Assembly (NCBI GenBank): GCA_964016885.1
Contig: OZ024740.1
Location: 338,334,001-338,398,000, forward strand
Direction of reading: 5' to 3'
DNA length: 64,000 nucleotides
From: Eledone cirrhosa
Taxonomy: Eukaryota
Part shown: positions 53,897 through 54,552 of the stretch, in pieces
How positions within the stretch are numbered: position 1 is the stretch's first letter
How the letters are laid out: each line of letters opens with the position of its first letter
Made by a program: the position numbers and the translations under genes
The notes under the pieces: generated by a model
Database searches by the model: none
What the model was told of the DNA's origin: nothing
What the model saw: the letters and a program-made list of their open reading frames with translations, nothing else

Positions 53897-54552
53897 ATAA
53901 TAAAATGAAAACGAAATTTCAGTTCTCACTCTTAGTACGGCACTTACTGTAAGTAATATGTATGTGTACCTGTATGTATATATGTATATATATATATATA
54001 TATATATATATATATATATATATATATATATATATATATATATATATATATATATATGCATGCTACTGTACGTCTGTATCCATATATATATGTACGTATA
54101 CATACATACTTACATCTAAGTAAGTGCCGTACTAAGAGTGTGAAATGAAATTTCGTTTTCATTTTATTACAACTTATCGTTTTCGGTGCGCCTGGCCGAC
54201 TGAACTCACTCGATATGCAAATTAGGCTGCTCAGCCGTTAATTTTCATAAGGAAAGTATATACTTTCGAACGTTCAACCATCTGGCAGAAGGGTATACGG
54301 TGCTGATGATAGCTAAGAAGCTTGAAACTAGTACATCGTTCCTGTGTCAGTGTTGAACAAAAAGGTGACGTTGTTGCCTTAACACCGTACGGCATAAATT
54401 CAGGCTGCCAGTTTGTTTACAAACGGACAAAGCGGGTGTTATAATAAACGTCCGCTAAACTGATACGTACATATATGTATGTGTACCTGTATGTATATAT
54501 ATATGCATGCTACTGTACGTCTGTATACATATATGTATGTACGTATACATAC
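53897..54552 (+). repeat. Diverged octamer-hammerhead element, partial tandem of a 447-bp unit plus a short inverted arm
   Basis: tgctactgtacgtctgtat at 54061 and 54508; 53897-53948 is an inverted copy of 54121-54168; flanked by (TA)n and (CT)n(TA)n. Confidence 0.85.
54297..54339 (+). ncRNA. Minimal type I hammerhead ribozyme
   Basis: acggtg CTGATGA tagc taagaa gctt GAAAC ta GTA catcgt; U-U mismatch at the stem II base. Confidence 0.8.

What the first reader, a model, noticed from the sequence alone, without database searches (positions are those of the whole stretch)
53897..54552. Strongly diverged sister element keeps the same module order, indicating selection on structure
Seen: a 447-bp unit has the same order as the array unit: gaaa-n-gaaattt palindrome, ttatcgt, actcac, tatgcaaattag..taattttcata, an aaag..cttt hairpin, then a hammerhead with the same GAAACUAGU and a similar loop II (uaagaa vs uaacaa). 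Stem I changes from aauauug/caauauu to acggug/caucgu and stem II from guug/caac to agc/gcu while pairing is kept. The terminal direct repeat and the fragment at 51441-51700, which reads across the unit junction, show permuted start points. Inference: an old, diversified family copied from circular or multimeric RNA rather than a one-off satellite.
Basis: partly seen in the sequence, partly recalled or inferred. Interest (0 to 1): 0.82.

Follow-up and report, generated by a model that had tools for sequence, protein, structure and literature searches.

The report
Ribozyme repeat with Penelope-type insertion ends
This is a small non-coding jumping repeat carrying a predicted self-cutting RNA motif; its predicted folded shape has been kept while its letters changed, and its ends suggest it is pasted into the genome by the enzymes of Penelope-type retroelements.

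Summary
The homology is real. The 447-bp unit (54106-54552) aligns end to end with the 473-bp array unit (295 of 433 aligned columns identical; score 198, best of 500 shuffles 59). Folded separately, the two units give matching helices, and pairs are kept above a substitution-shuffle null (96 of 128 against 71). The ends are not freely permuted. Five 3' ends fall at two sites 63-70 nt apart, the 5' ends scatter, two of three loci are head-to-head inversions, and the outer ends abut TA-type microsatellites. That is the insertion footprint described for Penelope-like elements (PLEs). Best reading: a non-LTR retrozyme family, mobilised in trans by a TA-targeting PLE from a circular or longer-than-unit RNA. 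The family is multi-copy and also lies in runs with two other organism labels. Not shown: transcription, cleavage, circular RNA, the helper element. A new member of a known kind, with unusually legible mechanistic footprints.

The parts
53711..53897 (.). (TA)n left flank, the likely target microsatellite
53898..53959 (-). Inverted arm: reverse copy of the tail (54108-54169); its 3' end is the 'long' end, its 5' end lies about 3 nt from the 'short' site
53958..54552 (+). Direct arm, 595 bp (1.33 units by length, inflated by an internal (AT)n expansion), 5'-truncated, ending at the 'short' end
53958..54105 (+). First copy of the terminal direct repeat (equals 54472-54552), with (AT)n expansion at 53985-54057; pseudo-LTR-like partial tandem
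54106..54552 (+). One full 447-bp unit, colinear with the 473-bp array unit
54106..54168 (+). Tail between the short and long end sites: small hairpin (54107-54122), 3' strand of a long-range helix (54124-54132), AT-rich hairpin (54141-54166)
54214..54249 (+). Hairpin conserved in sequence in both units (10 of 11 consensus pairs unchanged); candidate protein-binding or promoter element (inference)
54272..54358 (+). Two stacked long helices (54272-54293 with 54340-54358) that extend stem I and enclose the ribozyme; different letters, same pairing in the array
54297..54339 (+). Type I hammerhead motif: core 54303-54309, U·U at base of stem II, palindromic helix III 54327-54332, predicted cut between 54333 and 54334
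   Evidence: activity not tested
54387..54395 (+). 5' strand of the long-range helix that pairs with 54124-54132; double-sided changes against the array, and a matching pair of frequent family variants (54129, 54390)
54461..54549 (+). Long TA-rich stem with apical hairpin, just upstream of the short end
54553..54648 (.). (TC)n(TA)n right flank
51441..51700 (+). Third family member, 5'-truncated (starts at 54351-equivalent), crosses the unit junction, ends at the long end in (TA)18; lacks the ribozyme
27524..30965 (-). Array left arm, about 7.3 units of 473 bp, 3' end at the short site in a TA-type microsatellite
30965..32710 (+). Array right arm, about 3.7 units, 3' end at the long site in a TA-type microsatellite; head-to-head with the left arm
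58100..61047 (+). Context: degraded PLE (RT motifs, CX4CxxC linker, GIY-YIG), ends in (TA)n; the kind of helper proposed, but no sequence tie to the unit. Start coordinate approximate
51736..53480 (-). Context: 3' fragment of the same PLE family with a minimal hammerhead-like motif at 51855, between TA runs

Best explanation
A non-autonomous, non-coding retroelement of the non-LTR retrozyme kind, spread in trans by an endonuclease-bearing Penelope-like element (PLE) that targets (TA)n. Steps: (1) SHOWN in DNA: units of about 450 bp with one type I hammerhead motif each occur as partial tandems and arrays. (2) SHOWN in silico: the RNA strand that carries the ribozyme folds into a branched structure kept by compensatory change. 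(3) INFERRED: multimeric transcripts are cut by ribozymes working as dimers through the palindromic helix III, and monomers may be ligated to circles. (4) INFERRED from the ends: a PLE protein nicks a TA repeat and starts reverse transcription at one of two fixed internal sites that bound the tail, 220-310 nt downstream of the ribozyme cut. It copies on round a circle or along an uncleaved multimer and stops at variable points. (5) INFERRED: priming from both target strands gives head-to-head arms, one ending at each site. The sister copy is an older monomer-type insertion whose own ribozyme is probably weakened. Circle versus multimer as template: about even.
For: Homology and fold: z -7.6 sister, -11.7 array on the ribozyme strand; -2.6 and -6.9 on the other; 40 shuffles each; same asymmetry without the TA stem; pairs kept 96 and 88 of 128 against null means 71 and 69, maxima 88 and 86 in 5000. 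Family variants: 8 of 38 break a pair against 14.6 expected, 142 of 20,000. Ribozyme layout matches the canonical metazoan type I of retrozymes (PMC4209133; Rfam HH9 E 4.5e-8 for the array); a U·U at the base of helix II occurs in a cleaving axolotl retrozyme (PMC7229834). Ends: five 3' ends at alignment columns 64, 66, 72 and 484, 485; 5' ends at 3, 227, 264, 350, 398; chance of such clustering 2585 of 2,000,000. Partial tandems, an inverted 5' copy, a tail at one end and TA targets are the PLE footprint (PMC8557442); two RT start sites bound the tail in vitro (PMC11167929). A PLE of the Neptune-like layout ending in (TA)n lies in the same window. One joint in reads of the same species label (54092 to 54342, opposite strands) can only be head-to-head and starts 13 nt from the short site (inference from the side length).
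Against: No RNA evidence at all. No sequence similarity between the unit and the resident PLE's 3' end (10 comparisons; the best had 6 of 300 shuffles as high and did not lie at the terminus), so the helper is not identified. The tail is 63-70 nt, longer than the 30-40 nt reported for PLEs. Only three loci give the end positions, and the short-end match rests partly on the alignment phase (by hairpin position the two short ends differ by up to 11 nt). The array's inner junction is not at the short site, so a simple two-primer model on one linear RNA does not fit it. Matching double variants in the reads number 2 against 0.59 expected, not significant (2187 of 20,000). One of two sister-fragment totals was weak (63 pairs kept of 73, 524 of 5000). 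In vitro a PLE used uncleaved RNA and did not need its ribozyme, and 8 of 9 Xenopus retrozyme dimers did not cleave.
Confidence: 0.7

Rival explanations
1. The unit is only the pseudo-LTR of an unseen autonomous PLE; these are 5'-truncated or locally amplified terminal repeats, not a replicon of their own.
For: PLE copies are mostly 5'-truncated, and retrozymes have been proposed to arise from pLTRs (bioRxiv 10.64898/2026.07.22.740005). A metagenome locus (L017) shows a GIY-YIG 3' end followed by a hammerhead with the same helix III word.
Against: Upstream of the unit lies the unit itself, never coding sequence, at all three loci. The fold closes on itself over the whole unit. The ribozyme is the canonical type, not the minimal PLE type of PMC4209133. 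No match to the resident PLE.
Confidence: 0.13
2. A DNA-level element or satellite (MITE-like or Helentron-like; likeness recalled, untested) whose palindromes are kept by DNA hairpin repair or template switching, the ribozyme being a passenger.
For: The window has many palindromic repeats; hairpins can be homogenised in DNA; the opposite strand also folds better than shuffles (z -2.6, -6.9); arrays can grow by unequal crossover.
Against: Long-range helices and the ribozyme core are kept with double-sided changes; folding is stronger on the ribozyme strand in both units; scattered 5' ends with fixed 3' ends are a reverse-transcription pattern; the fragment has no terminal inverted repeat.
Confidence: 0.08
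3. A retrozyme or SINE-like RNA mobilised by the abundant APE-type LINE of this genome rather than by a PLE.
For: Several APE-RT LINE copies lie in the window, one ending just left of the array; PMC7229834 names LINEs as possible helpers.
Against: No similarity between the unit and the LINEs in the self-comparison rows shown; no poly(A) or shared 3' end; two alternative 3' ends with a tail are described as PLE-specific.
Confidence: 0.06
4. The inverted arrangements are assembly or long-read fold-back artefacts, so the end pattern means little.
For: The array is almost perfectly homogeneous (0-2 differences among 8 full units), no genome was held, and no listed contig spans the whole sister stretch.
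Against: The sister's arms differ from each other (83-89% identity), which a fold-back read would not give; two diverged loci and a second family show the same long and short asymmetry.
Confidence: 0.03

Closest known systems
Metazoan non-LTR retrozymes (coral, mussel, axolotl; PMC7229834)
   Same: Short AT-rich non-coding tandem unit, one type I hammerhead per unit, weak palindromic helix III, highly self-paired predicted RNA, monomers and multimers in one genome; U·U at the base of helix II as in axolotl HHR_Amex2.
   Different: Units of 447-473 bp lie at or just above the 150-450 bp range given there; that paper's main text has no word 'inverted' and I saw no account of two fixed 3' ends or TA targeting in the parts read; cleavage and circles were shown there, not here.
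EN+ Penelope-like elements (Neptune, Naiad, Poseidon; PMC8557442, PMC11167929)
   Same: Partial tandem with terminal direct repeat, 5' truncation, inverted 5' arm, tail at one end only, microsatellite targets, ribozyme upstream of the 3' ends.
   Different: No RT or GIY-YIG frame; canonical rather than minimal hammerhead; tail 63-70 nt against 30-40 nt; no homology to the PLE in the window.
Vertebrate retrozymes as non-autonomous PLE derivatives (bioRxiv 10.64898/2026.07.22.740005)
   Same: Same proposed partnership; array meets its definition of an active retrozyme (two or more consecutive units with the motif; its energy cut-off was not applied as written), the sister is a monomer.
   Different: That work rests on co-occurrence and pLTR homology; 'tail' does not occur in its text and 'inverted' only in a reference. 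Here the link is the insertion footprint, without pLTR homology.
Non-autonomous Chlamys PLE derivatives such as MRC1 (PMC8557442 passage)
   Same: Non-coding elements that form pLTRs and multicopy head-to-tail insertions.
   Different: Those generally share 3' sequence with autonomous families and most Chlamys lack canonical hammerheads.

Membership tests
Non-LTR retrozyme | Type I hammerhead motif in each unit | tested here: met
   10 motifs in the array and 1 in the sister; HH9 37.7 and 18.1 bits, below gathering 52
Non-LTR retrozyme | Short tandem unit (150-450 bp), GC under 50% | tested here: met
   447 and 473 bp, the latter just above the range; array bins GC 0.345-0.351; sister GC not computed separately
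Non-LTR retrozyme | No protein-coding frame | tested here: met
   Six-frame listing of stop-free stretches of 90 aa or more: over the element only frames that run through or abut (AT)n runs
Non-LTR retrozyme | Highly self-paired predicted RNA | tested here: met
   66-68% paired, z -7.6 and -11.7; conserved helices
Non-LTR retrozyme | No primer binding site or polypurine tract | not tested
   No search for these was run
Non-LTR retrozyme | Self-cleavage in vitro | not testable with these tools
   Needs transcription assays
Non-LTR retrozyme | Accumulation as linear and circular RNA | not testable with these tools
   Only DNA or untyped runs could be laid
Non-LTR retrozyme | Target-site duplication longer than 4 bp where present | tested here: inconclusive
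   Flanks are microsatellites, which hide duplications
Autonomous EN+ PLE | ORF with telomerase-like RT and GIY-YIG endonuclease | tested here: not met
   None in the unit; so not an autonomous PLE
PLE-type insertion | Partial tandem with pLTR-like direct repeat and 5' truncation | tested here: met
PLE-type insertion | Inverted 5'-truncated copy at the 5' end | tested here: met
   2 of 3 loci
PLE-type insertion | 30-40 bp tail at one end only | tested here: inconclusive
   A tail at one end only in 2 of 2 inverted loci, but 63-70 nt long
PLE-type insertion | Microsatellite target bias | tested here: met
   5 of 5 3' ends abut TA-type or (TC)n(TA)n runs; 3.5% of window positions lie within 3 nt of such an edge
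PLE pLTR | Minimal hammerhead (long helix II, short helix I, unpaired base before stem II) | tested here: not met
   Helix I 6-7 bp plus extension, helix II 4-5 bp, no extra base in the array motif
PLE pLTR | Sequence homology to the terminus of an autonomous PLE | tested here: inconclusive
   None to the one PLE family in the window; the rest of the genome was not available
Canonical type I hammerhead | G10.1-C11.1 pair | tested here: not met
   Present in the array, U·U in the sister

The most novel reading that the evidence does not exclude
A PLE reverse transcriptase recognises this RNA by shape, not by pLTR sequence, and copies a viroid-like circle from two fixed internal sites at once. 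Two primers rolling round one circle would write a head-to-head pair of near-identical multimers (7.3 + 3.7 units) into a TA repeat in one event. The loci would then be a direct footprint of rolling-circle reverse transcription by a PLE in trans, and would explain PLE inverted ends as twin priming at the two tail-bounding sites.
Probability: 0.28. Interest if true: 0.74.

Novelty: new member of a known kind. Interest (0 to 1): 0.5.

Why it matters
Which enzyme spreads animal retrozymes is still argued from co-occurrence and terminal homology (PMC7229834; bioRxiv 10.64898/2026.07.22.740005). This family carries a canonical retrozyme ribozyme and the full PLE insertion footprint on the same DNA, in subfamilies only about two-thirds identical. 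That makes the question testable: the two priming sites, the tail hairpins and the conserved helices are mapped to the base, so they can be counted genome-wide and mutated in a priming assay. It also gives a rare case of whole-unit structure conservation for a retrozyme. If only the basic reading holds, it is one more retrozyme family in one more animal group.

Tried and rejected
1. Read ends as element ends. In run X21, 28,473 reads leave the unit at 54152-54153 and 10,377 enter at 54409 with mixed flanks. This looked like genome-wide fixed ends, but 7 of 7 start or end piles coincide with GCATGC (54058, 54505) or AATT (54149, 54220, 54240, 54397) sites. The library is a double digest (enzyme identity recalled), so these ends and the 0.93% read share are artefacts of the digest and are not used.

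2. Expression: no RNA holder listed; no evidence either way.

3. Covariation counts on the two-sequence consensus (26 of 106 pairs; 24 of 103) are circular, because the structure came from both rows; not counted as evidence.

4. Homologues elsewhere: 1 viral match to a hairpin pattern, in unrelated-looking AT-rich DNA without the ribozyme; 0 metagenome matches to the family-specific ribozyme pattern; 21 to a looser one, none homologous outside the motif. No covariance model was built, since only two full units were in hand.

5. Shared 3' end with the resident PLE: not above shuffles.

6. Rfam: 0 matches at gathering score in the window; microRNA hits at lower scores are TA-repeat hairpins far below threshold.

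7. Profile search of the window found no further member with the ribozyme; of 107 rows, those outside the array that start before model column 330 are the sister, the fragment and weak hits.

8. PLE relic: Pfam gave only RVT_1 at E 0.047 and no GIY-YIG; PDB sequence search 0; the Atlas feature search gave GIY-YIG clusters at 0.96-0.97, with that family on 13-55% of members.

9. The joint 54099 to 54361 is ambiguous in orientation, and 54282 to 54409 lies near a cut site; neither is used. 218 further joints were not shown.

10. One line (array palindrome check) used a wrong index; redone. No genome is held. Earlier findings: none. Paper search was uninformative (4,965 hits, none of the 20 listed holds 'retrozyme').

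Full report
What is there. The window looks like animal DNA rich in microsatellites and retroelements; no genome is held for it. At 53898-54552, between a long (TA)n run and (TC)n(TA)n, lies a non-coding element. A repeat starting at 54058 recurs at 54505, which gives a unit of 447 bp. The unit 54106-54552 aligns end to end with the 473-bp unit of the array at 27524-32712: 295 of 433 aligned columns are identical, and the local score of 198 compares with a mean of 31 and a maximum of 59 in 500 dinucleotide shuffles. The part without TA-rich sequence scores 107 against a maximum of 42; the weakest third (54346-54462) scores 35, reached by 1 of 500 shuffles. A third member at 51441-51700 is 217 of 251 identical to the sister and reads across the unit junction.

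The ribozyme. A motif scan of both strands gave 12 rows: 10 in the array, 1 in the sister and 1 implausible row at 36939. The layout is helix I of 6-7 bp with a bulge and extension, helix II of 4-5 bp, and a two-pair helix III with the palindrome ACUAGU. This is the canonical metazoan type I form that works as a dimer, not the minimal PLE form (PMC4209133, parts 1-2 of 4 read). Rfam HH9 scores the array motif at 37.7 bits and the sister at 18.1, both under the gathering score of 52. An axolotl retrozyme with such a mismatch still cleaves, weakly as a monomer and better as a dimer (PMC7229834, parts 2-3 of 6 and passages read). The shared word GAAACUAGU is generic: 7 of 21 metagenome matches form stems I and II of 4 bp or more without other likeness to the unit, and one locus with a 10-bp stem I (L017) lies behind a GIY-YIG frame.

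Selection on structure. Folded separately as circles, the units give z-scores of -7.6 and -11.7 on the ribozyme strand and -2.6 and -6.9 on the other (40 shuffles each); without the TA stem the values are -4.6 and -9.3 against -2.5 and -5.1. By inspection the two helix lists (17 and 15 helices of 4 or more pairs) follow the same order and nesting, including two long-range helices with different letters. As a fair test I mapped each unit's own confident pairs on the other through sequence-only alignments. With the MAFFT alignment 96 and 88 of 128 pairs are kept, against null means of 71 and 69 (maxima 88 and 86 in 5000); double-sided changes that keep the pair number 16 and 21 against 8.9 and 9.8 (49 and 0 of 5000). 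With a second alignment they number 13 and 11 against 5.4 and 5.8 (7 and 87 of 5000). This null assumes equal rates along the unit, and 32-40 pairs per mapping are broken, partly by misalignment. An independent test used family variants from public runs: of the 40 rows shown (of 106; 2 left out because they lie in the duplicate copy), 8 of 38 break a predicted pair against 14.6 expected (142 of 20,000); 2 double-sided pairs against 0.59 is not significant. Within the ribozyme the shown variants fall only on N7 and loop II. Variants often undo this copy's own changes, which favours the result.

The family. Run X1 has 11,513 of 16,285,364 contig records on the unit: 925 at 99% or more, 2349 at 95-99, 4949 at 90-95 and 3290 under 90. 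Runs with two other organism labels hold pieces across the ribozyme: 134 letters with 4 differences (X4) and 211 laid letters with 12 differences (X6). How close these organisms are is not known. No copy number can be read from these depths.

The ends. The 5' 62 bp are an inverted copy of 54108-54169. The array too is head-to-head, with its junction at 30965. On the common alignment, three 3' ends fall at columns 64, 66 and 72 (fragment, sister inverted arm, array right) and two at 484 and 485 (array left, sister right); the 5' ends fall at 3, 227, 264, 350 and 398, and the ribozyme cut at 244. Five random points cluster so in 2585 of 2,000,000 trials. The phase of the alignment was set at the short ends, but a rotation scan picked the same phase independently for the array. 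All five 3' ends abut TA-type runs, which border 3.5% of positions. Each inverted locus has one long and one short end. PLE insertions are described with partial tandems, an inverted 5' copy, a 30-40 bp tail at one end and (TA)n targets for Naiad, with a similar bias proposed for Neptune (PMC8557442, passages). A purified PLE protein starts reverse transcription at two internal sites that bound the tail (PMC11167929, parts 1-2 of 4). The tail here is longer, 63-70 nt. A second non-coding family at 55142-55971 shows the same geometry with a 51-nt tail, so the pattern is not peculiar to this family. The large piles of read ends in run X21 are restriction-digest artefacts and were set aside.

A helper. 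A degraded PLE lies at about 58100-61047, with RT motifs, a CX4CxxC linker and a GIY-YIG region; by the linker it is Neptune- or Nematis-like. It and its fragment at 51736-53480 end in (TA)n. It shares no significant sequence with the unit, so it shows that the machinery existed in this genome, not that it was the helper.

How it most likely works. Shown: the DNA anatomy, the conserved predicted fold, the multi-copy family. Inferred: transcription, dimeric self-cleavage, ligation, and copying by a PLE. The template must be longer than a cleaved monomer or circular, because the sister and both array arms read through the cut site. For a circle: the fold brings both cut ends together, and 8 full array units differ by 0-2 letters across both arms. 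For a multimer: a PLE used uncleaved RNA in vitro, and arrays can grow locally. In the sister, the long-end arm stops about 3 nt from the short site, as expected if two primers shared one RNA (twin priming, recalled from L1 biology; a search for it with Penelope listed 1 paper, not read). One read joint fits this (54092 to 54342); the array junction does not, unless the enzyme displaces strands on a circle.

Comparison with what is known. It works like, and meets every sequence-level feature that I tested of, a non-LTR retrozyme; cleavage and circles are untested. It is not an autonomous PLE. A PLE origin of animal retrozymes has been argued from co-occurrence and pLTR homology (bioRxiv 10.64898/2026.07.22.740005, parts 1-3 of 5 and passages; supplements not seen). 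I found no description of two fixed ends with inverted arms on a retrozyme in searches, but the library lacks most subscription papers and I read no supplements, where such structures may be drawn.

Verdict. Real, structured and mobile; a new member of a known kind. Interest 0.5, for the testable link between retrozymes and PLE machinery.

Noticed in passing
window 55142-55971 and 49247-49634 (-): A second non-coding repeat family with the same head-to-head layout: inverted arm ending at a short site, direct arm of about 1.1 units (unit about 625 bp) ending 51 nt further on, TA-type flanks. It has a hammerhead-like first box but no complete motif.
   Followed up: partly
window 58100-61047 (+) and 51736-53480 (-): Degraded PLE of Neptune-like layout with a long low-complexity 3' region; the second copy keeps a minimal hammerhead-like motif at 51855 and lies tail to tail with the fragment across one (TA)18 run.
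   Followed up: partly
L017 1450-2080 (-): GIY-YIG 3' end followed about 260 nt after its stop by a hammerhead with the same helix III word, then a short telomere-like repeat.
   Followed up: partly
L006, L009, L010, L011, L015, L021: Further metagenome hammerheads of the same short helix III type, single per locus, most of one family.
   Followed up: no
window 2535-4379, 24216-27235, 34027-35645 (-), 21020-21799: Copies of an APE-RT LINE with a PHD-like finger; one ends directly at the microsatellite left of the array.
   Followed up: no
window 5338-5685, 9753-10036, 11591-11798, 12094-12325, 18835-19405, 37448-37867, 48074-49178, 62202-62400: Many long palindromes of unrelated repeats; the one at 5338-5685 has hammerhead-like first boxes on both arms. 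Head-to-head insertion seems common in this genome.
   Followed up: no
window 8416-8606, 9930-10527, 12910-13111, 37448-37867: A dispersed SINE-like family of about 190 bp in tandem and inverted pairs.
   Followed up: no
window 30965: The array's inversion junction joins a break in ribozyme loop II to a break in a hairpin 123 nt further on; not at either fixed end site. Unexplained.
   Followed up: partly
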